Positions 40,189 through 58,335 of a stretch of DNA of 64,000 bases are shown here, piece by piece; within the stretch, counting starts at the first letter, position 1; the number at the start of each line of letters is the position of its first letter. Source of the DNA: Escherichia phage 172-1; sequence record NC_028903.1. The stretch is one strand, 5' to 3'. Both the position numbers and the translations under genes were made by a program. The notes under the pieces are model-generated. The model made no database searches. It saw nothing but the letters and a program-made list of their open reading frames with translations, and was not told where the DNA came from.

Positions 40189-40845
40189 TTAATTCTCCAA
40201 AGTTTTCTTCAGAGCTGCCCACGAGATTGGGTAGAGTTTAGCCATCTCTTCATCCAGAGATTGAGCAAACACTCGAACTTCATACTGAGCATGGGAGGAT
40301 AGTCGCTGACGACACAACTCAAACCAGCCATACAAAGAACCAGTCCACACCCACTCAGTGATCATTCCCTGAGGAAGAACAAATCGGGCTTGTTCTGGTG
40401 CAACGAACTCAATCAACTTGTCATATGCTGCTAGAGAAGCTTCATATGCATCGTTAATCAACATTAATGCTTCAGCTCGCTCTCCATTGATGAGTTGAAC
40501 CCCTGAACCTGCATGGAGGTCCGAAGGTCTCGCAAAAATCTCTTTAGGGATGAAGACTTCAACTGCTCCGTCTTTATACCTCCGGGACATTTCGTTCCAC
40601 GAAAACCCAATTTGGTGCTTGCCCAACTGTCTCGCAATTGCGATAGGTGCTTTGCATCGGAAACTGACTTGTGGGTGTCGGAATGGAGTAACATGCTTCT
40701 CTCTTGCGAGGAAGTTGATGAGACGTTCATCACGTTCATTTAAATCACCTTCACGGGTTACGCCAAAGGAAACTCGAGCTGCGTTTACTACGCTACGATC
40801 ACTTCCCATAGCTTCGATTAATGTTGCTTGTAATTGTTCATTCAT
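40189..40845 (-). CDS. thyX: flavin-dependent thymidylate synthase
   Basis: AARVSFG ... HVTPFRHPQVSF ... ARQLGKHQIGFSWNEMSRRY resembles the ThyX signature region (RHR-x7-S..SxRY). Confidence 0.7.
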   Translation of the reverse strand: MNEQLQATLIEAMGSDRSVVNAARVSFGVTREGDLNERDERLINFLAREKHVTPFRHPQVSFRCKAPIAIARQLGKHQIGFSWNEMSRRYKDGAVEVFIPKEIFARPSDLHAGSGVQLINGERAEALMLINDAYEASLAAYDKLIEFVAPEQARFVLPQGMITEWVWTGSLYGWFELCRQRLSSHAQYEVRVFAQSLDEEMAKLYPISWAALKKTLEN

Positions 40846-43743: not shown

Positions 43744-44277
43744 TTACACACCCTTAGATGCAACAACACCTTCAGAGTTATTATAACGACCCTTCACTGC
43801 ATAGGAATGTTCCCCTGCATGAGAGTGCTCAAACATCACCATCTGACCAACACGCATACCAGCACGAACTCGTAAGCTATGATGCTTGGTTACGTTGTGG
43901 AATTCAAACGTCAGCTTACTGCTATTAAATCCAGCATCAGCCCATCCAGCATGTAGGTGGTTCAAACCACAACGAGCCATAGATGAACGAAGAACAAACA
44001 GGCTTGAGATATTATCTGGAAGATTAAACTCCTCCATGGAGTGAGCCAAGAAGAACTGACCCGGAGTGATAACCAAACCCTCTTCAGGAATCTTTACTTC
44101 CTTCCACTGAAGATTTTCTTTCGCATCAATATCAACGATGCCATCAGCCTGTTCTTCAACAAGGATAGTATCACCAATACGGATATCCACACTAGCAGCG
44201 TTAACATACTTATGCTCCGCATCCAGATAGCCATTGTCAATTACATCGTGCAGTTCAACACTTCCTAGTAAACTCAT
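43744..44277 (-). CDS. dCTP deaminase / dUTPase-family protein
   Basis: VDIRIGD ... ITPGQFFLAHSMEEFNLP ... LRSSMARCGLNH ... FEFHN ... GMRVGQMVMFEH parallels E. coli Dcd. Confidence 0.7.
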   Translation of the reverse strand: MSLLGSVELHDVIDNGYLDAEHKYVNAASVDIRIGDTILVEEQADGIVDIDAKENLQWKEVKIPEEGLVITPGQFFLAHSMEEFNLPDNISSLFVLRSSMARCGLNHLHAGWADAGFNSSKLTFEFHNVTKHHSLRVRAGMRVGQMVMFEHSHAGEHSYAVKGRYNNSEGVVASKGV

Positions 44278-44286
44278 TCTTATTCC

Positions 44287-45699
44287 TTAGTTATTTGTTT
44301 CCATGTCAAAAGAGATTCCACGACCCGCTTCATCGGCAAACCGAACTGTACGGGTTTGAGGCTGCAATACTTCAGGGTTATCAGCAACAAAGCGATCAGC
44401 GAGACTGCGGCTGACGGTCTCAGCTAATTCACCATGAGAAGGGATATTAAGATCGGCGAGATTATCAACCACATCTTGGGCCACGTCTTCATCAGTCCAT
44501 ACAGCCCTAACAGGTGCGTTGAAACTCTGACCAGAGAACTGGTGACGGCTAACAGTCAAACCATTTGATTGACCATTAGAACGTCTAGACAACCACTGCT
44601 CAAATGAATCGCCAGTAACACCAAGAGCTTCTTCAAAAGATGTTCTACGAGTAGAGCTTAGATTTCGTGCTTCGTTTGCTCGACGTCTTGCAGGGGCTAC
44701 AAACACCCCTTCAACTGCATTGTGCCGATTAGGTTCATCTTCTCGACCAAGGAGATCTCCTCCTGTATTAGTTGTTAAGTTTGTCAACCCTTCAGACCAA
44801 TATGCACGAATCTGGCTAGAGCCATGAACACTTGACATTAACTGAATCTCTTCGTAAGGTATTCCAAAGAATAGACTCATGTCTCGGTTAACACAGTATT
44901 GAGCACTTGTTGTATCCTCAATAAGAGAAACCTGACCTAATCCATTAACCAGATGACTAACTGGCTGAGGTGTAGGAAGGTATCGAGTTTGGGCCATATA
45001 TTGATATGCAACAGATGGAGCTGAGAATCTTAACACTTGTGAATTAGGCCACTTTTTGTGAACGTATCTGATTTCACGACTAGAAACAACCACAGGGCAA
45101 GGAGCGGTCATAGCTAAATATCCATGAGGAGTCATGAATAGGTTGTCAAGAGTCATCGCACCACGGCACATCATAGGAAAATTATCCAATACCTCTTCAA
45201 TAGAAGTAGGATAATTAAACATGAATTGAATGCGGGTTCCATTCCACTGAAACTCAATAATATCAGTGAATGTTAATTGAGAACCCCCAGCATATGATTC
45301 GTTTGTAGCTTCAGCAAGAAGGGATGCATACTCGATATCTTGTGATTCAAGCCACTCTTTCACATTGCTTTCAATCTCTCGTCCAAGAGCTTGCCAATGA
45401 TCAACTGTAGTGAAAGTATTTTGAGTCCCTGGCGTCTGTCCTCTGACAACGAAGATATCAATATCGTGAGGTGCTATGTTATTAAGCACGGCATCACGAA
45501 CAGCCCCACCAGTAATGATAGGGCAAATGCCGTCTGGAATCAAGTTGTTGTTAATCAACTGTTCAATGAAGTGACGACCAACAGTGATATCAGGTTGTTG
45601 AGCAACCTTATCTTCAATTCGGTTAATCGGGATAACAATCATTTTACATTTTCCAATATAATGAAGGTGGGTCGTAAGGGTCAAATCCCGTGAGTTCAC
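44287..45699 (-). CDS. nucleotidyltransferase, CCA-adding enzyme / poly(A) polymerase-like head domain
   Basis: [23 protein letters not shown] matches the class II NTase signature GGxVRD...DxD. Confidence 0.55.
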
Positions 45700-46198
45700 A
45701 CAAGTATTTATAAACCTTAACGGTTAAGTTAACGTCCTGTTCACAGTAAGTAAACATATCTTCAGTGAAAGCATCCCATGCTTCCTCTTGCTCACCGTAG
45801 TCTCCTTTAAGTTCCTCTAAGAACTCACCCCATTGCTTCAAACCATGACCTCTTGGGCCATGTCTAGGGTCACCTTTCGGATACTCAGGACTGTCACCAA
45901 TACGGTCAGGTTTAAGATATCGACTAAGACACAAGGTGTCGAAGACGTTAAAACGATAGTCGATCAGATTGGGATACATCTTCTTCAGAGCACAAAGGTC
46001 GAAGTCAATAATATTATGACCTACGAGCACATCAGCTTCTGTAAGTTTACGAATCCCATCTTCAATTTGGTGAGGCCGATAGCCCCACCTTTCACCAGTT
46101 TCAACATCGAAGATGTAAATACACCACACTTTAGTTATGTCATCGTACAGTGCATTACTCTCGATATCAAATGCAAACACTTTCTTTTTCTTTACCAC
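45644..46198 (-). CDS. 3'-5' exonuclease (DEDDy, DNA polymerase proofreading-like)
   Basis: Exo I FAFDIES, Exo II HNIIDFD, Exo III YCEQD. Confidence 0.65.
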
Positions 46199-47982
46199 GG
46201 TGAAGCTCCATCTGCTTGATTGACGAGAGAAGCTGCATCCTCTCCGTTAGTCAAAACGAATGGATTATCTTCATCAACTTCAAAGTCTTCCCTTTCTACA
46301 AGTCTACCGGTTTCGCTGATATACTTAGTATAACAGACACCCGTCTGACCATAGTTACGTTCTTTCAGTAATCGAATGACTGAGAGGTTCTTAGCTAAGC
46401 CGTCAGCTTGCTTATCACGCTCAAAGCCAATGATACACTGACACCAACGCATAAGAGAACGAGAGCCAGTGAACTGTACTTCACGTACCTGTCCACCTTC
46501 TTCGTGAGGAGCACCACCTGCCGGAGCATTAAGGTGAGATAGCACGAAAGCGGTAAAGTCTAATTCTTTACACATACCAGCAAGCTCGGAAGCAATCTTA
46601 CTGATTTCAGTGTTAATCTCTGAAGGTGTTAAATGAGATACCAGAGCGGTAATGTTATCAAGAATGATGAACTTACACTGGTTTTCAACTACCCAGAAAC
46701 GGATACACTGTTTAATATCTTCCCATTCGTTCTGCCCAAAGTTGTCATACAAGAAGAATTTGTCTGCATAACGAAGTGCTTCATTACGCAAATCCTCCTC
46801 GTCATATTCAACATCGGGTCGGTGGAAAGGAATTGATGCTGACTTACCAGCGATGTTCTTAACAGACATGCCTACCTTCTCTTCCAAGAAGAAGCCACCC
46901 CCATTAAAGCCATGCTCTAAGCACAGATGAGCAACCAGTTCGTGAGCAATTAGTGTTTTACCACTACCTACACCACCACCGATGGCTACTACCTCTCCCC
47001 ATCGAATACCGAAGGTCATCTCATTAAGAGTTTTCCACGGATATGGAATACCCCACTCCGCTTTCTTCAGAGCATCATCAAGGCAATCAAAGATTGTTAC
47101 AGCACCAGCAGGAGATTCCCGCTTTGCTGAATACTTGAGAATGTTGAATAACTCTTGACCACGACCAGACAGAAGCATGTCATTCGCATCCTTAATCTCT
47201 TTCTCCACACCGTTGTATGGGAAAGTTCCTTTAGGAATACGAGCAAACTTGACATGAGGGAATAAAGAACGACCTTTTGTTAAAGCTATCTCACCTGCAT
47301 CGTCATTGTCCATGCAGAGCACAACCTCCTCAAAACCATTTACGAAGTCTCGATTACGAGACAACACAGAAGAGATTGAACCTGCACCGAACGGTAAAGA
47401 AACACATGCTGGCTTAATATTTGTTGCATTTGTAAAAGCTGTAAGGACATGGAAACCAGACATACAAGATAGCGGGTCTTCAAAAATAAACAGCTTCTTG
47501 TTGTACACATCTCCACGTTGAGCTTGTGCCATACCAAATAAGTCTGCTTCTTTCACACTGCCAACGTAATAAAACTTCTTACTATCTAGCAGCTTAACCT
47601 CGTAACCAACAATGTTTCCATCACGTTCACGAGGAAAGAAGTAGCTGTCTGGAGTCTGACCATCAGTCTGACTTAGACCAATGCGACACTCAAAACGCTC
47701 TGATACAGCTTTAGGGATTAAACGTCGAGTAAGTTCACCCTGAGGAAGCTCTAAGCAATCATCTAAGACTTCTCTCAATTCTTCAGGGGATAACTCTTTC
47801 TTCTCGTTTGGAGTGGGTGTAGTGCCCTTTTCGAACACTTCGTAATTCCCACAACGGTTACAACTTCCCCACTCCTCACCTGTCTCTTCGTTACGGAAGA
47901 GAATCATGTGGTTGTGGGTTTTATCACGACCATGAGAGATACATTCCTTACAACCTGTGTCTCCCAAAATGATCTTTGACAT
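46192..47982 (-). CDS. DNA primase-helicase
   Basis: N-terminal Cys4 zinc ribbon (CKEC...CNRC), central primase region, C-terminal Walker [10 protein letters not shown] helicase. Confidence 0.8.
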
Positions 47983-48008: not shown

Positions 48009-48212
48009 TTAGTAGAACGAACGAATTTCATCCCACACTTGTTCCTGTTCTTTCCTATAAAAAGAAAGTTGGGTCTTGAACATCTCCACTGATGATTCAA
48101 AGTTTTTAGATTGTGCAGCTTCAACGAAACGTTCATGTCGGTTGATTTTGCACCGTAGCATTAAATACTTGGCTTCAAGTCTCCGAAGAGCCTGTCTTTT
48201 CTCAAGATTCAC
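48009..48212 (-). CDS. hypothetical small protein
   Basis: 67-aa ORF ending 27 nt upstream of the primase start. Confidence 0.3.
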   Translation of the reverse strand: MNLEKRQALRRLEAKYLMLRCKINRHERFVEAAQSKNFESSVEMFKTQLSFYRKEQEQVWDEIRSFY

Positions 48213-48621
48213 TTTTCAGATACTCTGACCAGTCGCCAGATTCAACCAGAACGTCTTGTTCTTCGTCAATGTGATAAATCCAAGCGATAACAGTTTCACC
48301 TGAGTCCAGCTTAACGGCAATCTGGGTGCGTTGATAGAAGCTATCTTCAGGGCTACGTTTGTTGTAACCTTCCAGTCGGTCATATGGACCTTCCAGACCT
48401 GCTTTGTCAGTAGCAAACACTTCTACACGAACAGGCTTATTGTTATTGCTGTGTGCGAGAGAGATGCTTGGGAAGTAGGAACCACCATAACGGAACAGAT
48501 CGAAGTTGTCTTCAGTCCAACCTTCACCGATTGACTTAGCACCAGCTCGGTCATTAACTAAATAGTTAGCTTGACCACGACGAAGAGAACCATAAGTTGC
48601 TACGTAAATTACTTCTGACAT
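48202..48621 (-). CDS. gamma-glutamyl cyclotransferase-like (GGCT/AIG2 family) protein
   Basis: YVATYGSLRRGQANY matches the GGCT-fold YGSL motif. Confidence 0.5.
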   Translation of the reverse strand: MSEVIYVATYGSLRRGQANYLVNDRAGAKSIGEGWTEDNFDLFRYGGSYFPSISLAHSNNNKPVRVEVFATDKAGLEGPYDRLEGYNKRSPEDSFYQRTQIAVKLDSGETVIAWIYHIDEEQDVLVESGDWSEYLKSES

Positions 48622-48690
48622 TATCTATACCTTTGTTGGTTTGTTTAGTTTATCCGAACTAGCCTCCTCTTTCGAAGAGGCTAAAGCAGA

Positions 48691-48876
48691 TTACTCTGTA
48701 ATAAAGATTTTGATTACACCGCAGATTACTTCATCATTAAAAGAAGCAACAACTTCTTTATCCTGACAGAACTCTATCTTATTGTTATAAGAGTTGAAGT
48801 AATCAGCGTCAATATCCATTGCTCGCATTTCGCCAGCTGCATTGGTATCTTTAAACAGAACTTTATATTTATTCAT
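48691..48876 (-). CDS. hypothetical small protein
   Basis: 61-aa ORF. Confidence 0.3.
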   Translation of the reverse strand: MNKYKVLFKDTNAAGEMRAMDIDADYFNSYNNKIEFCQDKEVVASFNDEVICGVIKIFITE

Positions 48877-49121
48877 AGATAAGTTACTCCCTTGTCTTGT
48901 TGTGCTTCAGTGATGATACGTTCTACGCATTCCATAGAGTATTTATCACCACGTTTTAGGAAAGTCACAATTGCGGAGAACTGATTACCAATCATTCGCT
49001 GATTAGTAATACCCCACTCCTCACACAAATTACGCAACTCTTTACGAGAGCCTACAATAAGAGGCTCTTTTTGTTCCATCATTCCATTTTGTACTAGATC
49101 TTCCAATGAAAACATATCCAT
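48873..49121 (-). CDS. hypothetical small protein
   Basis: 82-aa ORF. Confidence 0.3.
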   Translation of the reverse strand: MDMFSLEDLVQNGMMEQKEPLIVGSRKELRNLCEEWGITNQRMIGNQFSAIVTFLKRGDKYSMECVERIITEAQQDKGVTYL

Positions 49122-49127
49122 ATATCC

Positions 49128-50324
49128 TTAGTAGTTTACAACAGTGCCATCATTCAGGGTAAGGCTATTAATCTGCAACACACGACCAAGCTGACGATCA
49201 CTAATTGGTGCGTTCCATCCAGAGCGGTAGAAGTTACGACCACAGAAGAACAAGATCACATTACTTGCTACAGTCGAACCGTTTTCAGGATGCTTGATGT
49301 TAGCGATATAATAGCCACGACGTAGATTACGACGGGTTACCGGGTTGATCTCTAACCCTTGTTCTTCAACTTGCATTGTTTCAGGAACAGGCTCCGAAGA
49401 CTCTTCAGCAACTGGCTCAGCTGACAATGCGAAGTTCTCGTCATCTGCTGATTCAGCAAATTCTTCTTCCACTTCTTCAACAGGCAGTTCGTAAGCAACG
49501 CGGTAGTCAGGATCAACACCAGAGAAGCTCTTAACAAACTCAACAATATTATGAGTGTAAGTTTCTAGAGTTGTTCCAGTCAGGCCCGGAGCTGTATTAA
49601 CTTCCAGAACCCAAGCGTTAGTACCTTTGCTAATCAGGTCAACAGCACCGAAGTTCAAACCCAGAGCAGATACAGCTTTGTGAGCTTGAATCAGAACTTG
49701 ATCAGGAGGCGCTTCAGTGAAGGAGTTAGAATAAACCCAACCAGTGTGATGGTTACGAATATCTTCACGATATGTTGACAGATCGCGATAACCGTTACGA
49801 CGAATCTTCTTCTGAACGTAAGTGATAACGCCTTCGAACACATGAACACGCCATTCACGACGTGGGCCTTGAATACCTTTGGTATATAGAGGGGCACGGG
49901 AAATACCTTCCGTCGGAAGACGAACAATAATACCTTCACCGGAGTGCCCATTTAGGATTCCACGCTCATAAACAATTTCGTTCTGGTTCCAATCTGAAGC
50001 CACACTCTGACTTACGGTATACTCTACAGTAGATACTCCAGCAGCTTCCAAAGTTTGAAAAGCTGTAACCTTATTAGCTGCTCGGTTCAATGCCACTACA
50101 GAGTTCAATACAGTTGCCCCACCAAAGAAAGAATCGTTGTATCGACGGTTTCCGTAGTTGACAACAATATCACCAACCCGAGAACGATAACGAGAACCCT
50201 CTGATACCAGAGACATTACGTTAGCGTTTAAGCGGAGTTCCTGAATCTTAGTGTTAATTGCAGAAGTAAGTTCACGAACTGAATCAGAAGGGCCATAAGG
50301 AAGAACACGGATACGAGTAGTCAT
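49128..50324 (-). CDS. ATP-grasp ligase (RimK-like) with acidic linker and C-terminal domain
   Basis: GAVDLISKGTNAWVLEVNTAPGL matches the ATP-grasp C-terminal motif (GVD..x..VLEVNxxPG). Confidence 0.6.
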   Translation of the reverse strand: MTTRIRVLPYGPSDSVRELTSAINTKIQELRLNANVMSLVSEGSRYRSRVGDIVVNYGNRRYNDSFFGGATVLNSVVALNRAANKVTAFQTLEAAGVSTVEYTVSQSVASDWNQNEIVYERGILNGHSGEGIIVRLPTEGISRAPLYTKGIQGPRREWRVHVFEGVITYVQKKIRRNGYRDLSTYREDIRNHHTGWVYSNSFTEAPPDQVLIQAHKAVSALGLNFGAVDLISKGTNAWVLEVNTAPGLTGTTLETYTHNIVEFVKSFSGVDPDYRVAYELPVEEVEEEFAESADDENFALSAEPVAEESSEPVPETMQVEEQGLEINPVTRRNLRRGYYIANIKHPENGSTVASNVILFFCGRNFYRSGWNAPISDRQLGRVLQINSLTLNDGTVVNY

Positions 50325-50326
50325 TG

Positions 50327-50551
50327 TTAGATACCTTTAAGTTTAAGAATTTCGTTACGAGTTTTTTGAATCTGAGCTTCAATTTCGAAGTAGTCGTTGA
50401 ACGCATCGTTCTCTACTTCATCGGATGGTGCATCAATCAGACCGAAAGCGAACGGATACAGCTTTCGCTGCTCCGTTACTAATTCGATATGAACTCCTAT
50501 GTAATACTGTAGGAGAGTGATCTTCGGTTTCTTAGGAACCAGATTTGACAT
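50327..50551 (-). CDS. hypothetical small protein
   Basis: 74-aa ORF. Confidence 0.3.
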   Translation of the reverse strand: MSNLVPKKPKITLLQYYIGVHIELVTEQRKLYPFAFGLIDAPSDEVENDAFNDYFEIEAQIQKTRNEILKLKGI

Positions 50552-50765
50552 GAGGTTCTACCTTAATGCCTTTGATTTTTACATAATCAGCAAGTACGTT
50601 ATTGATCACCGTTGGGAAAGGAACCTCAACCTGTGTCTCAAGTACTTGACCAATACCAGCTTGCATCCACTTCTGGATTGCACGAAGGTTGTCACATCCT
50701 GTGCTCGTCATCGGGATACGTCGAGTAGTTACAACGTTATCCAGCATCATCTTACGAATTTCCAT
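50532..50765 (-). CDS. hypothetical small protein
   Basis: 77-aa ORF. Confidence 0.3.
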   Translation of the reverse strand: MEIRKMMLDNVVTTRRIPMTSTGCDNLRAIQKWMQAGIGQVLETQVEVPFPTVINNVLADYVKIKGIKVEPHVKSGS

Positions 50766-50767
50766 AC

Positions 50768-52799
50768 TTAACCTCTATTCAATGAACATTTAGGAGAATT
50801 ACAATAAACTTGATTCATAGAACCAAGCGTACAACTTTCAGCATCGCGCCACGGAATCTGCTTAAAACACTCTGAGCAGTAGCCGAGGGTTGACCACATG
50901 GCTTTGGTGAAGTCAGTGCTTCGGTTTCCGTCGAAGCTGACAACAGTTTTGCGGAGAGCTGTTCGTGATTCAGGAAACACACCTGCTTTCTCAGCAGGTT
51001 CCTCCTTTTTTGGCTTAGTTGAGATTGCAAAAACACTGTTGCTACGTTTCTCAACATAAGCATCAACAACATCCTCCAGAGTGATGCCTGTCTGTTTCGC
51101 TGAGGAAGGTAATACAGTCATACGACCAATCATATCTTCAGTTACACGTAAAGCAAATTCAGGACGGCGGGCGTTTGTTGTATCTGTTGCTTTAATCCAG
51201 ACATAACCATCTTTGATTGTAGCATTAGATACTTTCTTCTTTACATCTACAGCGCAGACTTTACAGATATCTTCACCACGAAGACGACTAAGCTCTTCAT
51301 CGAACTCATTCTCCGTTTTAACTTCACCACAGATTTCACAAACACCAATAGGAGTTTCCTCCTCTTCTTCATCTTTAGGTTTAGTCAAACCTTCCAGACA
51401 TTCAGGGTGCCAGTAGCACTGATATGCGAAGACTGCTTTAGGTGCATCCTTCCAATCAATGTGTTTGTCACAACCACCACAATCACCATGAGAGTGTGCT
51501 TCCCAGAATTTACGAGTGATAGTAACGCCATTCTTATTGACGAAACTATCATTCATGTCAAAAGGGATATCATCATCGAAGTCAGCAGTAGTAGACTCAG
51601 GCTCCTTTTTCTCCAGAGATGGGTCAACAAAACGACCTGCTGTGATTACTAAACGAACCATAGCATTAACTTCGGAGATGCAGGATACTGTCCCACGGTA
51701 AACGATTTTAGGGTCTTTCAGGGCATCCTGATAAGCCTTAATGTCTACGTTATGAACATCGCCTTCAATATACTCTTGAGACTTCTCATCGTAGATATAA
51801 CCAATCATCTTACCACGAGAAGGAACAGCACCAGCTGTTGCATAAGGAACAAACTCATGTGGTGTGATTTCCACAGTCATGTCGCGGCGAATGTCAATGT
51901 TTCGATCGCTTGCGATTTTGTTTTGACTTACCACTGCGTTTCTTCGACGAACGTCTGCCGCTGTCACTCCCGGCTTCGTGTCGTAAGGATTGCTTGTACT
52001 GCTTTTTGAGGAACTTTGATAATTGCTTTGGCTGTAGTTGTTCGAGTAGTAATTGCCCCAACGATTGATTACCGTAAAAACCGGAAGCTCGTGGGCGACC
52101 TCTTCAACTAGAGTCATACTGTTGTTTGACATATCAAAGATATATTCTGTACCAACTTTACATTCAAAGTGCTCATCAATTCGGTTTTTGTGAGACTTAG
52201 AACGCTTCAGAATCCACATCAACATGTCTTCTTCAGAAGCACCAAACCAATCTCTGTTACAACGTGCGAGATGGAAAGGACGCTCTTCATTACGGATGAT
52301 ATGAAGGCGGTTATCAGAAGCATCATGCCAGATTAAGGTGAAAGCACCATCCAGCTTTTGAATAGTCTCTGCTGCACCAATAGTGTTAATAGAGTGGCAG
52401 ATGTTCTCACTGTCTACCTCGAAGTTTTTGCTGTCAGGTAACAGATCTTGGTCCATCAAGGTTCCATTATGAACCAGCGTGATGTTACCATGTTGGAAAG
52501 GATGGGCGTTCTTGGCGTTAACTGCACCTTTCGTTGCATGACGGCTGTGACCAACAATCCATGAAGGTGCTACAGTGTAAGCTGTTTCACCAGTGGTGTG
52601 CTTCTTGTACTCATCTTGAAGGATGAATGCGAAAGAAAGGAAGAGCTTCTTTATAAGTGAAGACTTCCTTAGTGCTCTTACGCTGACCAAAGATACCAGA
52701 GGAATGTTGCCCTCGGAATACTCCAGCATAAAAGAGTTGGTTAAATACGTCTAAATCAGTGCTTGACAGATTACCGCCAGCTAATACGATGCCACAAAT
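50768..52799 (-). CDS. class II (Ntn) glutamine amidotransferase domain protein with Cys-rich C-terminal domain; frame-disrupted with apparent AUU start
   Basis: listed ORF 50768..52729 has GHSRHATKG..NAHPF..LVHNGTL (GATase II) but lacks Cys1; the upstream frame encodes (M)CGIVLAGGNLSSTDLDVFNQLFYAGVFRGQHSSGIFGQ starting at ATT 52799 with SD aggtgg 8 nt upstream; the frames differ by +1. Confidence 0.5.
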
Positions 52800-52878
52800 T
52801 TTCTAATCCACCTGAAGGGTAAACCCTTTCATCTAATTAACCTTTAAATTGTGCCCCTTTTTCAGAGGCACCCATTGA

Positions 52879-53982
52879 TTACAGCGCTTGCTCTAACTGA
52901 TTTTCCAGATGATCTGGAATGTACCTTGTGATATTGCTATCACTGTGACCTGACTCACGCAGTAAGTCAAAGATAGCACGGATACGTTGTTCTGGAGCGT
53001 GTCTTACTTGAGACAGGTCAGTTGTACGAAGCATAACCAGAATCTCTTGGTACAAGTTGTTAGCATTCCCTCGGACATACCCAAGGAATCCGTAGAAGTC
53101 TGACATATAACGTAAGTCAACAAGAACATCTCCGTTGGAGTTGGTTCGACGTAAACGAATACGACCAGACTGCTCTACTTCATGAGAACGGCAATACAAA
53201 ACATCACGGGCCATACAATACCCTGAATGCAAATCCGACTCGTCCAGATTGTAATCCAGAGGAAGGTAAGGAAGCATTGGGGCAAATCGTACAGTATTTA
53301 AATGCTCAATAAACTGATCATTGCTCATCTCTGCGTTATCTAAAGCCAGCTTCTTCAACATCAAGAAGCGGTTAACCAGATTGAGAAGTTGACCACGTTT
53401 CCACTTAGGCTCGCTGATACGGAACTCAATTGAACCGTATTGGGCAAGTGGCAGAAGATTCAGGGATGTATACTTATCCCATGAACGAACCAGACGGTTG
53501 AAGAACTCTTCATCGTCGTAGTTAAATGCGTCAGAGGCATTCATTACTTGTGCTTGTACCACTGCGAAAGCAGGGCAGAAGTTGCTACGGTAACGATGAT
53601 AGCCTGAACACTTGAACAACATCTTTTCATAGAAGGTCCAAGCGAGAATGGTTTTCTTGAGGATATTACTATCAGCATCCCTCATATCCATATGAACGTG
53701 AGTAGAGCAACGCCAAGTCCCCTCGGCGTGCGATTCAGCTACTGCTTCACTCAGGTTGTTGATAGCGTCTAACAACTCCTGTCCGTTGTAAGGTCGTGAA
53801 CATACCATTTCACAACCATTACGCAGGGAACCATCCTCTGTACAATCCCACATATCTGCTTCGATATGATCGGAACCTTCGAGTTCAAGTTCAATACCGA
53901 CACCGCACTGAAGTGCAATTGAACTATGCGCCTCAGTTAAACGACCTTCTCGATATCCAAAAGTTTGCGCTACAGTTGTCAT
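52879..53982 (-). CDS. carboxylate-amine (COOH-NH2) ligase-like, amidoligase family
   Basis: GVGIELELEGSD and STHVHMDM motifs resembling the glutamine-synthetase/GCS2-type amidoligase metal-binding pattern. Confidence 0.45.
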   Translation of the reverse strand: MTTVAQTFGYREGRLTEAHSSIALQCGVGIELELEGSDHIEADMWDCTEDGSLRNGCEMVCSRPYNGQELLDAINNLSEAVAESHAEGTWRCSTHVHMDMRDADSNILKKTILAWTFYEKMLFKCSGYHRYRSNFCPAFAVVQAQVMNASDAFNYDDEEFFNRLVRSWDKYTSLNLLPLAQYGSIEFRISEPKWKRGQLLNLVNRFLMLKKLALDNAEMSNDQFIEHLNTVRFAPMLPYLPLDYNLDESDLHSGYCMARDVLYCRSHEVEQSGRIRLRRTNSNGDVLVDLRYMSDFYGFLGYVRGNANNLYQEILVMLRTTDLSQVRHAPEQRIRAIFDLLRESGHSDSNITRYIPDHLENQLEQAL

Positions 53983-54596
53983 AACGAATCCACCAACGTA
54001 ATATTGTAATTGCTAAGGTTTTCAGAAATGTGATGAAAGTGTTCCAGAAGTCGCATCGGTTGCTGACCGTAAGAGTCACGAGGCGCTTCCAGATCTACTT
54101 GCCCTACCAGTGCACCTTTATAGTGCACCTTACCATCAGTAGGGTTGATGTAAATGTAACGAGTGACCAATCCATCAAACTCAGGATTGAACAAACTGTA
54201 AACCATCTCCCCAGAGATAGAACGACCAATCCCAGGAGCATTTCGAATCTTGTTACCCATCAAACCCTTCGCTCTCTGACGAACAGGGTTAATATGAGTC
54301 CAGCTTACAGTGTTACCGTTATGGAACAGATAACCAACATCAGGTGATTCAAGAATCAAGGTTGGGTCGAACACTGGAATGTTCATCGTAGTGTTTCGAA
54401 GATTCCCTTGCTCGTTCTTGTACCATTGCTCTACAACAAAGTACAGAGCCTGTTCTGCTTCGTGAGAGAAGTCATCACTGCGGAAGTTACCGCTCTGCTC
54501 AACACCGATCACAAAACACGGAAGGTTGATATTACCTGCTCGTTTAGCAATCCATGTACCATTATAGTAATGAGAAAAATCAGCTACTAAGCTCAC
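53979..54596 (-). CDS. hypothetical protein (ligase cluster member)
   Basis: 205-aa ORF translationally coupled to both neighbours. Confidence 0.4.
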   Translation of the reverse strand: MSLVADFSHYYNGTWIAKRAGNINLPCFVIGVEQSGNFRSDDFSHEAEQALYFVVEQWYKNEQGNLRNTTMNIPVFDPTLILESPDVGYLFHNGNTVSWTHINPVRQRAKGLMGNKIRNAPGIGRSISGEMVYSLFNPEFDGLVTRYIYINPTDGKVHYKGALVGQVDLEAPRDSYGQQPMRLLEHFHHISENLSNYNITLVDSL

Positions 54597-54605
54597 GATA
54601 ACCTC

Positions 54606-55412
54606 TTATGCTACCTGAAGGAGTTTGATCTGCTGGTCCGCTTCTTTAACATTGTTGCCGTTAATGATTTCATGAAGCTTCTCAATCGGAAGGCGAGAGT
54701 GCAATGCCATCAGAGTGGACATATCACACTGCTGAACAACTTTGTCAACCTGATCGTAAACAAACTTACGGTTTTCACGATCACTAATCCAGAAGTTAGA
54801 CAGTGAACGATACTCAATACCATAATCTTTATAACGGATTGCAGACGCTTTACCGTAGAGTTCTTTACGGCGAGTATCTTTATCCATAATAACTGCTGGG
54901 AGGGACAGGAAGTAGTCACACAGCACACCCAGCATCATTTGAGTTTGCAGGGTGATATCCAAAGCACCAACTACGCCAAGATGTACGTGACCACCGGCAG
55001 TACGAAGCCCCTTGTTCTGAGAAGTCGGGGATGGATTCTTCTGACCAGTGAAAGCGTTGAAATCAGGAGTACATCCGAAGATGAACGCTGATTCATTGAA
55101 AGTCTTCATCTCTTCTTCAGTGAAGATGTGAGAGCTAACACCCGGAGCTGTTTCCATGTCCAGTTTGTTCAGGACATTGTTGGTGAGATCGATACCACGT
55201 TGCATGTTATCGTTAAACGCGTCAAAGCCGCTCTGTGGGTCGATATCAAACTCAGCCAGTACGTTGTCCTCTTGAAGACGAACATCCTTAGCCAGAGTGA
55301 TCTTATCATCCTTAGAACAGCCTAACAGACCAGCCACAGAAGTGATGATGCCATTGCTGGTACGAACAAACATTTCAGGATCAGAGCCGATAAGGAATTT
55401 GCGCTTAGTCAT
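54606..55412 (-). CDS. GCS2/YbdK-like carboxylate-amine ligase-like protein
   Basis: LIGSDPEMFV and GGHVHLGV resemble YbdK motifs (GIELEM, GQHVHVG). Confidence 0.4.
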   Translation of the reverse strand: MTKRKFLIGSDPEMFVRTSNGIITSVAGLLGCSKDDKITLAKDVRLQEDNVLAEFDIDPQSGFDAFNDNMQRGIDLTNNVLNKLDMETAPGVSSHIFTEEEMKTFNESAFIFGCTPDFNAFTGQKNPSPTSQNKGLRTAGGHVHLGVVGALDITLQTQMMLGVLCDYFLSLPAVIMDKDTRRKELYGKASAIRYKDYGIEYRSLSNFWISDRENRKFVYDQVDKVVQQCDMSTLMALHSRLPIEKLHEIINGNNVKEADQQIKLLQVA

Positions 55413-56376
55413 TGTAATACTCCACTAGTTCAGAAAAGAGAGATGAGATTGTGTTACCAACTTCTTCAGTAGTAAGGCCAGAGCTTGGGCCAGTACGCTG
55501 AATTAGTCGGGCTGTAAAGTTTTGTACTGTAATGTTTTCCAACTTATTGTCTATTGCTTCACGTTTGTGACCATGGCAGTTGGACCAGAGTTGTAACCAC
55601 TCTGACATTGTTTGGTACTCGTCCGGGTCTTGATCTTTAGCTTGAGCAAAAGCAGTCAGAGCCTCTAGGTCGTGGTTTCGAACATAACCGTTGTGGTTTC
55701 TACCTTCACCAAACATACCTTGCACCCACACCTGATCTGTATACTCATCAGAGTCTACAACCAAAGGTAAGAATGCTGCTGCTGACATATCACCATTAAT
55801 GGCAACAGATGTACTTTCACTTGAGCTGTTAGCTCTTCCTCGTTGAGACCACCCACCGAAGAAGTCACGACCCAACCCAGCTAACACTAGAGCGATGCCG
55901 ATGCGTTTACGCTTCAGCCACTCTTCCCTGTCTTCAATTCCTTCTGCTAGGAAATCCATTCCACGATACTGCCCTTCCAGAATACTACGGAAAAGCATAA
56001 GTCCTGTGAAGATTTGATCTGCTGGATGCTCACGGAGGTTGACAGCTACACTATTCGCTGAAGTGATTGTAAATACATCACGATAGCAAGACATAGAGTT
56101 CATAATGTCTGCTGTTTCAACCAAGTTCCTTTCAATATAAGATGTAGTCTGACCATGAAAAGAGTGAGTCCAGTAATTCAACATCTCCAATTGCAAGTTG
56201 ATATCACGGTTGAAGCGTCTATAACGCCCATCTTCAGTGATAACTTCACCATTAATATCATTTACACACTGGCCTTGCATGTAGTTGTGGATACCGAAGC
56301 ACCCACGACCTAAGAACTTCTGTTCCCCTAAATCCTGTTGAAGATTCAGAGGTACGATCGTTGTGGAGATTGACAT
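55405..56376 (-). CDS. hypothetical protein (ligase cluster member)
   Basis: 323-aa ORF overlapping its neighbour's start. Confidence 0.4.
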   Translation of the reverse strand: MSISTTIVPLNLQQDLGEQKFLGRGCFGIHNYMQGQCVNDINGEVITEDGRYRRFNRDINLQLEMLNYWTHSFHGQTTSYIERNLVETADIMNSMSCYRDVFTITSANSVAVNLREHPADQIFTGLMLFRSILEGQYRGMDFLAEGIEDREEWLKRKRIGIALVLAGLGRDFFGGWSQRGRANSSSESTSVAINGDMSAAAFLPLVVDSDEYTDQVWVQGMFGEGRNHNGYVRNHDLEALTAFAQAKDQDPDEYQTMSEWLQLWSNCHGHKREAIDNKLENITVQNFTARLIQRTGPSSGLTTEEVGNTISSLFSELVEYYND

Positions 56377-56386
56377 AACTAACCTT

Positions 56387-57580
56387 TTATTTTCCTAAAA
56401 ATAATCCGCTCATAATACCATCCCACTCAGAGGATGGAATCACTGAATACACTGAACTTTGGTCCATAGTTCCACTACTAAATCGCTGAACAATGTTATA
56501 AATGTTGAACAGATCTTTAGTCTCAGCACGGATGCCGTAGATTAGACTATTAGCTGTTCTCTCATCTTTAGATACGCGACGGGTAAAGTTAATCAGAAGG
56601 TTGTCACATTTCAGGATTTCTGATTCATTCTCTACTAAATCAGGGTGCATCACCGGCAAGAACATCGAGTTATTAACTCGTAATTCTGCTGTTTCATCAT
56701 TCTCATAATGAATCCACTTAAAGTCTTCATCACGGAAGTGACCACACCCATCCCTATACGACTGTTGACGCCAAGGTACTTGGAATGCTTCAGCATACTT
56801 ATCAGCCATGCCTACTGTAAACAGCGACGCTGGGAAAATACAGGCATCCCAATCATTACCAACCAGAGTTGCTTTTGTTTCACCCAAGAGGTTAGTGTAA
56901 GTGCTAACCATTCGTGAGTAAACGTAAGCCTGAAGAATTGTCCAGCCTTCAACCAACCATTTATGAAGGAAGGTTTCAACTTGACTCTCTTCATCATCAC
57001 AATAGAAGGTTCGATCTAACATTAAATAGAACAGACAACGATCAGCAGGAACATTCTCAGTTGCTACACCCATAAAACCTTTTTCGTGCCAGCGTAAACA
57101 GGAGGGACGATCTTTGTCCACAAATGCTTCCATAGCTTCCAGTACAGCACGAGGTGAGGTTTGATACTCAGGGTTTTTATCATTCCAGTGCTCAATGTTA
57201 TTTTTAAGCTCGCCTTCGTGATCAATTGCACCCCAACCTAAATCTGCGGATACAGGTTTTTCATCACGCCATCGTCTAAAACCTAACATCTTCATGTGAG
57301 TTCCTGAGTTCCAGATATGTTTGATTTTACACATATCCATCTCTCGGCTTAGCAGGAATTCTTCCCCATCAGCACTACGAACGTTAGCTTCTTCATGCCA
57401 CACTCGAACGTGCATATTCCACCCATGAGTTGCCTCATACATGTTAGGGTCGAAGTATTCATCTTCGTAATCATCTTCATCAACGCCACCATTATAGTTG
57501 CGAAGCTGAAGGAACCCATAACAAGGAGGGTGGACCGTTAAAACATTACCTTCAGTATCTTCTAATGTTACTGGAAACAT
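56387..57580 (-). CDS. hypothetical protein (ligase cluster member)
   Basis: 397-aa ORF, first gene of the cluster in transcription order. Confidence 0.4.
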   Translation of the reverse strand: MFPVTLEDTEGNVLTVHPPCYGFLQLRNYNGGVDEDDYEDEYFDPNMYEATHGWNMHVRVWHEEANVRSADGEEFLLSREMDMCKIKHIWNSGTHMKMLGFRRWRDEKPVSADLGWGAIDHEGELKNNIEHWNDKNPEYQTSPRAVLEAMEAFVDKDRPSCLRWHEKGFMGVATENVPADRCLFYLMLDRTFYCDDEESQVETFLHKWLVEGWTILQAYVYSRMVSTYTNLLGETKATLVGNDWDACIFPASLFTVGMADKYAEAFQVPWRQQSYRDGCGHFRDEDFKWIHYENDETAELRVNNSMFLPVMHPDLVENESEILKCDNLLINFTRRVSKDERTANSLIYGIRAETKDLFNIYNIVQRFSSGTMDQSSVYSVIPSSEWDGIMSGLFLGK

Positions 57581-57591
57581 TATACCAACCT

Positions 57592-57954
57592 CTATTGGTT
57601 TTTAATCAACTCAATCGACTTACGGATATAAAGAATATCTCGGAAGTTTCGATAGTTGTTCATAAATTGGTGCTTCTGGAAAGTAGCTTCTTCCAGAGCT
57701 TTCTTTGCTTCTGCGTAGTTTTTACGGGCAAGATGTACAACCCGCTCTGGTAACACATTTGCACGACGGATGATATACTTGTGAGCTTTCATGTTGCTTT
57801 GCTCACGAGTAATCTTACCTTTAGCAACTTTGATACCATTTGCAATCCAAGCAAGTTCTTGCTCAAGCTCATCGTTGGACATTCCACCGAGATTTGATGC
57901 AACCTTGTTCAGAGTTTCAATATTAACGTTGCCCTTAATGGGACGTGTATTCAT
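57592..57954 (-). CDS. hypothetical protein
   Basis: 120-aa ORF. Confidence 0.35.
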   Translation of the reverse strand: MNTRPIKGNVNIETLNKVASNLGGMSNDELEQELAWIANGIKVAKGKITREQSNMKAHKYIIRRANVLPERVVHLARKNYAEAKKALEEATFQKHQFMNNYRNFRDILYIRKSIELIKNQ

Positions 57955-58109: not shown

Positions 58110-58128
58110 ATTTCCTCTCATTGAATTT

Positions 58129-58153
58129 AAAAAAGGACTCTCCGAAAAGAGTC
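58129..58153 (-). terminator. rho-independent terminator (minus strand)
   Basis: gacucu-uuucgg-agaguc + UUUUUU on the minus strand. Confidence 0.45.
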
Positions 58154-58335
58154 AAGCTTTAAATCCAAAAAGATATTACCCAATATCTGTGGATAACCTG
58201 CTCTTAAAATATCTATCCGACGGATGTTTGAGGATTATTCCTCGCCCTAGCATCGGCCCCATACGGGAAATATATTAAGATTAGGTTAGTTGAGTTAGAA
58301 TAACTCACATAGCCCTCCGAAGAAGGCTATAAATG

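What the first reader, a model, noticed from the sequence alone, without database searches (positions are those of the whole stretch)
48202..57580. Clustered ATP-grasp, class II amidotransferase, two carboxylate-amine ligase-like genes and a GGCT-like gene: candidate peptide-ligation or metabolite-synthesis module
Within about 9.4 kb of co-directional, tightly packed genes the translations show: a GGCT-fold protein (YGSLRRG, 48202..48621), an ATP-grasp enzyme (VLEVNTAPGL, 49128..50324), a class II Ntn amidotransferase with a large Cys-rich C-terminal domain (50768..52799), an amidoligase-like protein (GIELELEG / THVHMD, 52879..53982), a second YbdK/GCS2-like protein (GSDPEMFV / GGHVHLGV, 54606..55412) and four sizeable proteins with no recognisable motif (53979, 55405, 56387, 57592). 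Three independent amide-bond-forming chemistries plus a gamma-glutamyl-cleaving fold in one phage operon suggest synthesis or ligation of a gamma-glutamyl or peptide-like moiety onto a protein, nucleic acid or small molecule. From memory, comparative-genomics work has predicted such amidoligase systems in phages, but I cannot verify that here and know of no biochemical characterisation. The target and role (virion modification, host takeover, anti-defence) are open.
Basis: partly seen in the sequence, partly recalled or inferred. Interest (0 to 1): 0.85.

Follow-up and report, generated by a model that had tools for sequence, protein, structure and literature searches.

The report
Phage glutamyl-amide ligase gene cassette
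This is the phiEco32-type "amidoligase" gene cassette of Kuravirus phages, predicted by comparative genomics in 2009 but never tested biochemically; its enzymes most likely build and then trim glutamate-based amide links on a still unknown target early in infection.

Summary
The window is a Kuravirus (phiEco32/NJ01-like) phage, about 96% identical to published genomes. The reported genes are real, co-directional and tightly packed. Profile searches confirm a GGACT-like cyclotransferase, a RimK/MptN-like ATP-grasp ligase, a class II glutamine amidotransferase, an Amidoligase_2 protein and a "phiEco32-like COOH-NH2 ligase type 2". That last Pfam family is named after this phage group, so the system is already known as a 2009 prediction. 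I found no biochemical study of it.

New details:
- The amidotransferase starts at a conserved ATT codon that public annotations miss. In this window alone it is broken by a one-base insertion.
- The 205-aa protein is a universal core member of the cassette.
- The 323- and 397-aa proteins are paralogues with a phage-only fold.
- In 78 viral contigs the four enzymes travel together, nearly always just upstream of the primase/helicase. 64 of the 78 also carry a GGACT-like enzyme, a Peptidase_C26 gamma-glutamyl hydrolase, or both.

This supports gamma-glutamyl build-and-trim chemistry. The acceptor is unknown: I favour a small amine or cofactor, then a protein. A DNA modification that would explain the unexplained restriction resistance of these phages is possible but unlikely.

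The parts
56387..57580 (-). u397: 397-aa protein of unknown function, first large gene of the cassette; paralogue of u323
55405..56376 (-). u323: 323-aa protein of unknown function; paralogue of u397
54606..55412 (-). COOH-NH2 ligase type 2 (glutamine-synthetase-like amidoligase, PF14395)
   Evidence: Pfam 2.1e-8, above cut-off. PHROG 'COOH.NH2 ligase' 6.6e-118. Invariant QEDNVL..E, SH, LRxAGxHxH and GxEYR motifs across 8 phage lineages. Present in 72 of 78 viral loci.
53979..54596 (-). u205: 205-aa universal cassette protein that always lies between the two GS-like ligases; function unknown
   Evidence: Start overlaps... its stop overlaps the amidoligase start by 4 nt. Orthologs in all lineages. 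hhalign links it to the ~226-aa and ~208-aa proteins at the same position in metagenomic cassettes (96.7% and 96.5% probability). No solved relative by sequence profile.
52879..53982 (-). Amidoligase_2 (glutamine-synthetase-like amidoligase, PF12224)
   Evidence: Pfam 3.9e-8, above cut-off. PHROG 'amidoligase enzyme' 4e-159. Invariant GxExExE, SLRxGxE, RxSTHxH and GxxExR motifs in 9 lineages. Present in 78 of 78 loci.
50768..52799 (-). Class II (Ntn) glutamine amidotransferase with a ~450-aa C-terminal extension carrying three Cys4-type motifs; ATT start at 52799; split here by an extra T at 52636-52638
   Evidence: GATase_6 9.8e-15. N-terminus I/M-CGIVLAGG in a second frame. One-base insertion relative to NJ01 and L010. 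Repaired protein is 676 aa. Alignment to the E. coli GlmS glutaminase domain keeps the R, HNG and D(S/T)E glutamine-binding residues. Intact 672-677-aa ORFs from ATT in 5 relatives.
50532..50765 (-). s77: small conserved protein (DUF7195) directly after the amidotransferase
   Evidence: Orthologs in EK010, GAP52, YP1, Vp_R1, LAh_6 and LUZ24 gp20, with invariant R15, P18, P49, P51, I54 and no conserved C-terminus. Precomputed Pfam PF23825 on the orthologs.
49128..50324 (-). RimK/MptN-like ATP-grasp ligase with a ~130-aa C-terminal extension
   Evidence: NCBIfam MptN 5.3e-9, rimK_fam 1.6e-8. Solved alpha-L-glutamate ligase 7qys 8.6e-4. E-x-N motif VLEVNTAPGL. Ortholog passes the Pfam RimK cut-off. 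Present in 76 of 78 loci.
48202..48621 (-). GGACT/AIG2-like gamma-glutamyl(amine) cyclotransferase
   Evidence: Pfam GGACT 2.8e-17. PHROG 1.1e-44. YGSLRRG and RLEGY motifs. Orthologs in 7 lineages. Present in 35 of 78 loci, partly complementary with Peptidase_C26.
57592..57954 (-). u120: 120-aa protein upstream of u397; seen only in the Gordonclarkvirinae-type relatives; membership of the cassette uncertain
   Evidence: Found by tblastn only in NJ01 and EK010. A 119-aa gene sits at the same position in L009. No family hit.
48691..50551 (-). Small lineage-specific ORFs interspersed in the cassette: s74 50327-50551, s82 48873-49121, s61 48691-48876
   Evidence: ORF list. Conserved only in NJ01 and EK010. 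No family assignment beyond PHROGs of unknown function.

Best explanation
This is the phiEco32-type amidoligase cassette, an early-transcribed multi-enzyme pathway that uses ATP, glutamate and glutamine.

Shown here: two glutamine-synthetase-fold ligases (PF14395 and Amidoligase_2), a RimK/MptN-type ATP-grasp ligase and a GlmS/PurF-type class II glutaminase form an obligate set with a 205-aa partner protein. A gamma-glutamyl-cleaving enzyme accompanies them in most phages: GGACT-like here, Peptidase_C26 in many relatives.

Inferred from the established chemistry of these folds:
1. One GS-like ligase phosphorylates the gamma-carboxylate of glutamate and joins it to an amine on the acceptor.
2. 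The ATP-grasp enzyme adds a further alpha-linked glutamate or other amino acid.
3. Amidoligase_2, together with the adjacent amidotransferase, converts a carboxylate to a carboxamide with glutamine-derived ammonia.
4. The cyclotransferase or C26 hydrolase later removes the gamma-glutamyl group as 5-oxoproline or glutamate. Glutamate would then act as a carrier or protecting group, as in the Puu pathway or butirosin synthesis.

My committed guess is that the acceptor is a soluble amine-bearing metabolite (a polyamine, cofactor or nucleotide-like compound) needed around the time of phage DNA replication, rather than a protein or DNA. In this particular genome the amidotransferase is frameshifted. 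Either the sequence has an error or this isolate lacks that step.
For: - Family assignments and intact catalytic motifs.
- Co-occurrence in 78 viral loci: Amidoligase 78, ATP-grasp 76, COOH-NH2 ligase 72, GATase 67, all co-directional.
- The cassette is syntenic from E. coli Kuravirus to Pseudomonas LUZ24 gp14-22 and marine Zobellviridae.
- The u205 family is universal.
- Gamma-glutamyl chemistry: GGACT-like in 35 loci and Peptidase_C26 in 42, with at least one of them in 64 of 78. The C26 representative scores 6.5e-20 in Pfam, and its nearest NCBIfam models are gamma-glutamyl-CDP-amidate hydrolase and PuuD.
- Leaning towards a small molecule: the ATP-grasp's best models are the cofactor glutamyl ligases MptN and CofF, ahead of S6-RimK. 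Five or more enzymes is typical of a metabolite pathway. No small cassette protein has a conserved terminus that could serve as a tag. Relatives have PRPP synthase, NAMPT, NUDIX, RNR or glutaredoxin next to the cassette.
- Early expression: the ATP-grasp, GATase and YtfP-like proteins were detected as 'early gene products' in SU10 proteomics (PMC4281155). No phage-sigma-type TAATGTATA motif lies upstream (the consensus is recalled from memory).
Against: - No product, substrate or phenotype is known for any member.
- The order of steps and the choice of acceptor are inference only.
- Four conserved proteins (u205, u323, u397, s77) have no predicted activity and could be substrates or scaffolds, which would favour a protein target.
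- RimK itself modifies a protein.
- The amidotransferase's long Cys-rich extension is unexplained.
- The scores to MptN, CofF, PuuD and Cj1417 are far below those families' cut-offs, so they show family-level resemblance only.
- The neighbouring metabolic genes differ between lineages and may simply share the early region.
Confidence: 0.45

Rival explanations
1. Protein modification. The ligases attach glutamate or a short peptide to a host or phage protein, in the manner of RimK on ribosomal protein S6, PafA/Dop pupylation or tubulin glutamylases. This would redirect host machinery. The GGACT or C26 enzymes would reverse or recycle epsilon-(gamma-glutamyl)-lysine links.
For: - The ATP-grasp belongs to the RimK family, and solved RimK proteins are among its hits.
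- GGACT enzymes act on epsilon-(gamma-glutamyl)-lysine (established knowledge of the family).
- Conserved non-enzyme-like partners (u205, u323/u397, s77) could be substrates or adaptors.
- The amidotransferase carries three Cys4-type motifs that could mediate macromolecular binding.
- Iyer et al. 2009 framed these ligase families as peptide modifiers of proteins (title as cited).
Against: - No conserved C-terminal acceptor or tag motif in s77.
- The lysines that are invariant in u205 among close lineages are lost in the broad alignment.
- Known tagging systems need one ligase plus one hydrolase, not four amide-forming or amide-transfer enzymes.
- The glutaminase keeps a free-glutamine binding site.
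Confidence: 0.25
2. Cell-envelope modification. The enzymes alter murein stem peptides or precursors, for example by adding glutamate or amidating it as MurT/GatD does, to exclude superinfecting phages or to time lysis. This is the function attributed to Iyer et al. 2009 by later papers.
For: - PMC10580990 reports that Iyer et al. suggested cell-wall modification preventing superinfection for phiEco32.
- The ATP-grasp also resembles D-Ala-D-Ala ligase.
- Amidoligase plus GATase is formally analogous to glutamine-dependent amidation of iso-glutamate.
Against: - No signal peptide, membrane anchor or Mur-ligase or transpeptidase partner among the core proteins.
- The cassette is conserved across hosts with different envelopes and always sits with replication genes, not lysis genes.
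- Superinfection-exclusion genes are usually variable, not ancient and syntenic.
Confidence: 0.08
3. DNA or nucleotide-pool hypermodification. The cassette adds an amino-acid-type (glutamyl or amide) group to a base, which protects the genome from restriction enzymes.
For: [quoted passage not shown]
- Sites of the enzymes recalled as tested in that study (the enzyme list is from memory, not retrieved) are present in this window: EcoRI 14, EcoRV 34, EcoKI 10, EcoP1 97.
- The cassette abuts the primase/helicase in 55 of 78 loci.
- Lee et al. found amidoligase and amidotransferase genes next to thymidine-hypermodification genes in viral metagenomes (PMC8989533).
Against: - No 5-hmdU kinase, aGPT-Pplase, dUMP/dCMP hydroxymethylase, TGT/DpdA or glycosyltransferase was found in the cassette, in the ten largest replication-module ORFs or among the commonest neighbours.
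- The phage has ThyX, which makes ordinary dTMP.
- Strong avoidance of GATC (131 against 306 expected), CCWGG (6 against 98) and 16 absent six-base palindromes shows the DNA is exposed to sequence-specific enzymes. That is unusual for fully hypermodified genomes.
- No known DNA modification uses GS-like ligases.
Confidence: 0.1

Closest known systems
phiEco32-type phage amidoligase system (Iyer, Abhiman, Burroughs and Aravind 2009, Mol Biosyst; Pfam PF14395 and PF12224)
   Same: It is this system. The window is a Kuravirus about 96% identical to NJ01. It has PF14395, PF12224, a class II amidotransferase and an ATP-grasp gene in the published neighbourhood.
   Different: Nothing essential. This copy has a frameshifted amidotransferase. 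Added here: the ATT start, the universality of the u205 family, the paralogy and orphan fold of u323/u397, and the Peptidase_C26 alternative to GGACT.
Gamma-glutamyl-polyamine pathway of E. coli and Pseudomonas (PuuA/PauA GS-like ligase plus PuuD/PauD Peptidase_C26 hydrolase)
   Same: A GS-fold ligase that gamma-glutamylates an amine, paired with a gamma-glutamyl hydrolase. The C26 proteins in related cassettes hit PuuD at 7.5e-6.
   Different: The phage ligases belong to other families (PF14395, PF12224), not the GlnA-like PuuA family. The phage system adds an ATP-grasp and a class II glutaminase, and has no oxidase or dehydrogenase. This window has GGACT rather than C26.
Butirosin side-chain pathway (BtrJ ATP-grasp plus BtrG GGACT-like cyclotransferase)
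   Same: An ATP-grasp ligase adds glutamate as a transient protecting group, and a GGACT-fold enzyme removes it as 5-oxoproline. The ATP-grasp and GGACT genes are adjacent in LUZ24 (gp21, gp22).
   Different: No acyl carrier protein or aminoglycoside genes. No direct sequence comparison with BtrJ or BtrG was possible here; the resemblance is recalled, not tested.
RimK / MptN / CofF / LysX family of alpha-L-glutamate ligases
   Same: These are the best profile matches of the ATP-grasp protein.
   Different: Scores are far below the family cut-offs (35.6 bits against 350 for MptN; 34.3 against 143 for rimK_fam). There is an extra ~130-aa C-terminal region (PHROG 20552). No S6-like or LysW-like acceptor was identified.
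Thymidine hypermodification clusters of phages (Lee et al. 2022, PMC8989533)
   Same: Those authors report amidoligase and amidotransferase Pfam domains in some such clusters. Both are phage-encoded and lie near replication genes.
   Different: The defining enzymes (5-HMUDK, aGPT-Pplase, dUMP hydroxymethylase or TET/JBP) are absent here and in the neighbours surveyed.
Campylobacter O-methyl phosphoramidate pathway (Cj1417 gamma-glutamyl-CDP-amidate hydrolase)
   Same: Glutamine or glutamate is used as a carrier and released by a C26-type hydrolase. Cj1417 is the best NCBIfam model for the cassette-associated C26 protein (2.2e-9).
   Different: Score 37.7 bits against a cut-off of 250. No glutamine kinase or cytidylyltransferase homologs. 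The C26 gene is absent from this window.

Membership tests
phiEco32-type amidoligase system | A PF14395 (COOH-NH2 ligase type 2) protein | tested here: met
   34.2 bits against a cut-off of 25, E 2.1e-8.
phiEco32-type amidoligase system | A second GS-like ligase (Amidoligase_2), a class II amidotransferase and an ATP-grasp gene in the same co-directional neighbourhood | tested here: met
   Same order as in NJ01, EK010, GAP52 and LUZ24 and in 78 viral loci.
Class II (Ntn) glutamine amidotransferase | Catalytic Cys as first residue after the initiator | tested here: inconclusive
   ATT-TGT at 52799 with a Shine-Dalgarno sequence 8 nt upstream. In this window a one-base insertion separates it from the rest of the domain. 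It is intact in relatives.
Class II (Ntn) glutamine amidotransferase | Glutamine-binding Arg, oxyanion Asn-Gly and Asp of the GlmS/PurF glutaminase domain | tested here: met
   Alignment to GlmS 1xff: GHSRHAT, NAHP, VHNG, VDSE. GATase_6 55.2 bits against a cut-off of 27.
ATP-grasp, RimK family | Score above the curated family threshold | tested here: not met
   Pfam RimK 16.1 against 21 and Dala_Dala_lig_C 18.3 against 24. rimK_fam 34.3 against 143. The YP1 ortholog passes Pfam RimK (34.1). So the ATP-grasp fold is secure, but membership of RimK proper is not.
ATP-grasp, RimK family | C-terminal Mg/ATP-binding E-x-N motif | tested here: met
   VLEVNTAPGL aligns with VMEVNSSPGL of solved ligase 7qys.
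GGACT/AIG2-like gamma-glutamyl cyclotransferase | Pfam threshold, plus the YGxL motif and the acidic residue of the LxxYE/LEGY motif | tested here: met
   63.8 bits against 22.8. YGSLRRG and RLEGY are read from the translation.
   Only PF14395 was reported at E<=0.1 and there was no GCS2 hit. The protein belongs to the same superfamily according to the Pfam description, but not to that family.
Phage thymidine hypermodification pathway | 5-hmdU DNA kinase, aGPT-Pplase, dUMP hydroxymethylase or TET/JBP | tested here: not met
   No such Pfam hit in the cassette proteins, the ten largest replication-module ORFs or the 20 commonest neighbour clusters. Small ORFs were not all scanned.
Known anti-phage defence or counter-defence proteins in PADLOC | Match to any PADLOC model | tested here: not met
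   No hit for 10 cassette proteins.
phiEco32-type amidoligase system | Demonstrated product or activity | not testable with these tools
   No biochemical study was found in nine literature searches.

The most novel reading that the evidence does not exclude
The cassette installs a covalent glutamate- or amide-type group on phage DNA or on a deoxynucleotide precursor. This would be the missing explanation for the broad restriction-modification resistance of Gordonclarkvirinae, which have no known modification or anti-restriction genes. It would also be the first DNA modification pathway built on glutamine-synthetase-fold ligases, with the orphan-fold u323/u397 paralogues as the DNA-handling components.
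Probability: 0.1. Interest if true: 0.9.

Novelty: already known. Interest (0 to 1): 0.4.

Why it matters
The cassette is one of the most widely conserved unexplained gene sets in lytic podophages. It is found from therapeutic E. coli and Pseudomonas phages (Kuravirus, LUZ24-like) to abundant marine phages, and it takes up 9-12% of their genomes. Finding its product would reveal either a new phage-made metabolite, a new host-takeover protein modification, or a new DNA modification. It might also explain why Kuravirus phages ignore restriction systems, which matters when choosing and engineering therapeutic phages. The corrected gene model (ATT start) is needed for anyone who wants to express an active amidotransferase.

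Tried and rejected
- The two key primary papers (Iyer 2009; Savalia 2008) are not in the held library. Their content is known here only through citing papers.
- Sequence searches of solved structures found nothing for u397, u323, Amidoligase_2 and the u205 family.
- The afdb50 library was unavailable.
- An exhaustive HMMER search with the u323 profile found only 23 representatives and no informative fusion.
- hhalign could not link the two ligase families beyond the RxxxHxH motif. It linked u397 and u323 only weakly; Foldseek settled their paralogy.
- Larger orthologs of the ATP-grasp, amidoligase and GATase showed no extra Pfam domains.
- s77 as a ubiquitin-, Pup- or LysW-like tag: rejected, because it has no conserved terminus.
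- u205 as a lysine carrier: weakened, because the invariant lysines vanish in the broad alignment.
- A programmed +1 frameshift in the amidotransferase: rejected, because the extra T is private to this sequence.
- A structured RNA upstream of the amidotransferase: one 8-bp hairpin, but the overall fold is not significant, z = -1.3.
- A phage-sigma promoter in front of the cassette: no motif found.
- PADLOC gave no hits.

Full report
**What the window is.** Megablast of 48202-57954 against phage records gives 98 hits, 64 of them near full length. The best are Escherichia phages XT32, PE006 and NJ01 at 96-97% identity. NJ01 is classified as Gordonclarkvirinae, Kuravirus, the phiEco32-like podophages. 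All genes from about 27 kb to 64 kb lie on the minus strand. The finding sits between a block of small early genes (58-64 kb) and the replication module: primase/helicase 46192-47982, polymerase exonuclease subunit 45644-46198, a poly(A)-polymerase-like nucleotidyltransferase 44287-45699 and a dCTP-deaminase-like protein 43744-44277.

**Checking the observation.**
- Pfam confirms GGACT (2.8e-17), GATase_6 (9.8e-15), Amidoligase_2 (3.9e-8) and PF14395, 'Phage phiEco32-like COOH.NH2 ligase-type 2' (2.1e-8).
- The ATP-grasp assignment is below Pfam cut-offs in this protein. It is backed by NCBIfam MptN and rimK_fam (5.3e-9, 1.6e-8), a solved alpha-L-glutamate ligase, a PHROG match of 1e-187 and an ortholog that passes the RimK cut-off.
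- The 205-, 323-, 397- and 120-aa proteins have no Pfam, NCBIfam or PADLOC match.

Three corrections are needed.
1. The amidotransferase is not a single ORF here. The Ntn N-terminus (I/M-CGIVLAGG...) starts at 52799 and stops at 52611, while the main ORF (52729-50768) is in another frame. Alignment with NJ01 and EK010 shows one extra T in CTTCCTTTCTTTCGC. A 98.9%-identical contig and five IMG/VR relatives lack it and encode uninterrupted proteins of 672-677 aa. The insertion is therefore private to this sequence. It is a sequencing error or a recent inactivating mutation, not a programmed frameshift.
2. The start codon is ATT. An in-frame TAG two codons upstream excludes the GTG, and AGGTGGA lies 8 nt upstream. 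The ATT is conserved in NJ01, EK010, L009 and five IMG/VR genomes. More distant lineages have ATG-TGT. Public annotations of NJ01 and EK010 start at internal ATGs and omit the catalytic cysteine.
3. The 268-aa protein is PF14395, not YbdK/GCS2 itself.

**Anatomy and conservation.** tblastn and annotation tables show the same gene order in Suseptimavirus EK010, Cronobacter GAP52, Proteus YP1, Vibrio Vp_R1, Aeromonas LAh_6 and Pseudomonas LUZ24 (gp14-gp22). The order is [u397][u323][COOH-NH2 ligase][u205][Amidoligase_2][GATase][s77][ATP-grasp]...[GGACT], followed by primase/helicase. Pseudoalteromonas RIO-1 has a shuffled version.

A scan of IMG/VR with the RxSTHxH motif of the amidoligase returned 78 loci. 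Local HMMs found Amidoligase_2 in 78, ATP-grasp in 76, COOH-NH2 ligase in 72 and GATase in 67; the shortfalls are mostly at contig ends. A GGACT-like gene was present in 35. A primase/helicase lay within 10 kb downstream in 55. Everything was on one strand.

The ~200-aa protein between the two ligases is universal. The u205 profile matches the proteins at that position in the two metagenomic architectures with 96.7% and 96.5% hhalign probability.

**Are the enzymes competent?**
- Both GS-like ligases keep invariant acidic, HxH and ExR motifs across lineages.
- The ATP-grasp keeps the E-x-N motif.
- The GGACT-like protein keeps the YGSL and LEGY motifs.
- The repaired amidotransferase aligns with the GlmS glutaminase domain through the Arg, His-Asn-Gly and Asp-Ser-Glu residues that hold free glutamine. 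Its ~450-aa C-terminal part has three Cys4-type motifs and no family match.

**Evidence for gamma-glutamyl chemistry.** The commonest additional gene in the 78 loci, present in 42, is a Peptidase_C26/class I amidotransferase-fold protein (6.5e-20). Its nearest curated models are gamma-glutamyl-CDP-amidate hydrolase and gamma-glutamyl-GABA hydrolase PuuD. C26 alone occurs in 29 loci, GGACT alone in 22, both in 13 and neither in 14, many of the last group being truncated. The window has GGACT and no C26. Up to three enzyme types that recognise a gamma-glutamyl group with a free alpha-amino-acid end therefore accompany ligases whose fold classically activates the glutamate gamma-carboxylate.

**What is known.** PF14395 is named after this phage group. 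Citing papers attribute the prediction to Iyer et al. 2009 and report that those authors suggested cell-wall modification and superinfection exclusion. Genome papers merely list the genes. SU10 proteomics detected the ATP-grasp, amidotransferase and YtfP-like proteins as early products. Nine literature searches found no biochemical or genetic study of the cassette. The finding is a correct re-discovery of a known, named but uncharacterised system.

**Mechanism.** From the folds' established chemistry I infer an ATP-driven pathway. It gamma-glutamylates an amine, extends or caps the product with an alpha-linked amino acid (ATP-grasp), amidates a carboxylate with glutamine-derived ammonia (Amidoligase_2 plus the adjacent GATase, the pair that persists in minimal versions according to PMC10580990), and finally removes the gamma-glutamyl group.

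I favour a soluble acceptor for four reasons. The nearest models of the ATP-grasp and C26 enzymes act on cofactors, polyamine derivatives or nucleotide amidates. The pathway has many steps. No tag-like small protein was found. Nucleotide and cofactor genes often lie nearby. All of this is inference, and a protein target remains a serious rival.

**The DNA-modification reading.** The BASEL-II study reports that Gordonclarkvirinae are remarkably resistant to restriction systems without any known modification pathway or inhibitor, and it guesses at dU-containing DNA. In this window EcoRI, EcoRV, EcoKI and EcoP1 sites occur at ordinary frequencies (14, 34, 10, 97), so site loss does not explain resistance to those enzymes. 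Lee et al. noted amidoligase and amidotransferase genes beside thymidine-hypermodification genes in viral metagenomes.

Against this reading:
- None of the defining hypermodification enzymes is present here or among the commonest neighbours.
- The phage encodes ThyX (8.8e-44), which also argues against simple dU substitution.
- The genome strongly avoids GATC, CCWGG and many six-base palindromes (total 664 against 960 expected). This is the signature of DNA that sequence-specific enzymes can still read.

I give this reading about 10%.

**Verdict.** The system is already known as a prediction and its function is still open. The additions made here (ATT start, private frameshift, universal u205 family, orphan-fold paralogues, C26/GGACT alternation, site census) sharpen the experiments but do not identify the product.

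Noticed in passing
window 52797-52799 (minus strand); L001 7792; L002 ~7854; L011-L014, L018: The amidotransferase starts at a conserved ATT codon, with Shine-Dalgarno AGGTGGA 8 nt upstream and an in-frame TAG just before it. This holds in E. coli Gordonclarkvirinae, while other lineages use ATG. GenBank/RefSeq annotations of NJ01 and EK010 begin at internal ATGs and so lack the catalytic Cys.
   Followed up: yes
window 52636-52638 (minus strand): A private one-base T insertion splits the amidotransferase into a 62-aa N-fragment (52799-52611) and a 653-aa ORF (52729-50768). All relatives examined lack it. It is either a sequencing error or a natural amidotransferase-null.
   Followed up: yes
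whole window (64 kb): Strong restriction-site avoidance: GATC 131 against 306 expected, CCWGG 6 against 98, and 16 six-base palindromes absent (PstI, SacI, KpnI, BamHI and others). EcoRI, EcoRV, EcoKI and EcoP1 sites occur at normal frequency. This bears on the unexplained restriction resistance reported for this subfamily.
   Followed up: partly
window 40189-40845, 43744-44277, 44287-45699 (minus strand): ThyX (Thy1, 8.8e-44) is encoded near the dCTP-deaminase-like gene and a poly(A)-polymerase-like nucleotidyltransferase. A thymidylate synthase argues against the published guess that these phages replace T with dU.
   Followed up: partly
window 52800-52878 (minus strand): The 79-nt gap between the amidoligase and the amidotransferase holds an 8-bp hairpin (GUGCCUCU/AGGGGCAC), kept in EK010 through a T:A to C:G change. 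A second small hairpin abuts the ribosome-binding site. The overall fold is not significant (z = -1.3). It could be an attenuator or translational control element for the ATT-initiated gene.
   Followed up: partly
L009 1-9000; L003 1-1200; L006 16100-19250; L005 24475-24798: In relatives the cassette's region also carries TerD, TerC and vWA-TerF-like genes, PRPP synthase, nicotinamide phosphoribosyltransferase and a NUDIX hydrolase (an NAD-salvage-type set). None of these is in the window's cassette.
   Followed up: no
window 48622-48690 vs L001 3422-3631: NJ01 has an extra 69-aa ORF (NJ01_093) between the GGACT-like gene and the next small ORF. The window has only a 69-nt gap there. This indel accounts for the two-piece megablast alignments.
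   Followed up: no
window 58126-58155 (minus strand): The sequence TTGACT-N17/18-TTTAAA lies in the 214-nt intergenic region just upstream of the first small gene before the cassette. It overlaps a terminator-like hairpin. It may be a host-type early promoter for the operon; the match is at consensus level only.
   Followed up: no
window 5305, 16938, 22172, 31700 (+); 31628, 38190 (-): There are exact TAATGTATA motifs at these positions and none between 43 and 64 kb on the minus strand. The motif is the phiEco32 sigma-dependent promoter consensus as I recall it. The pattern is consistent with the cassette being early, host-polymerase-transcribed DNA. The overall count is not above chance.
   Followed up: partly
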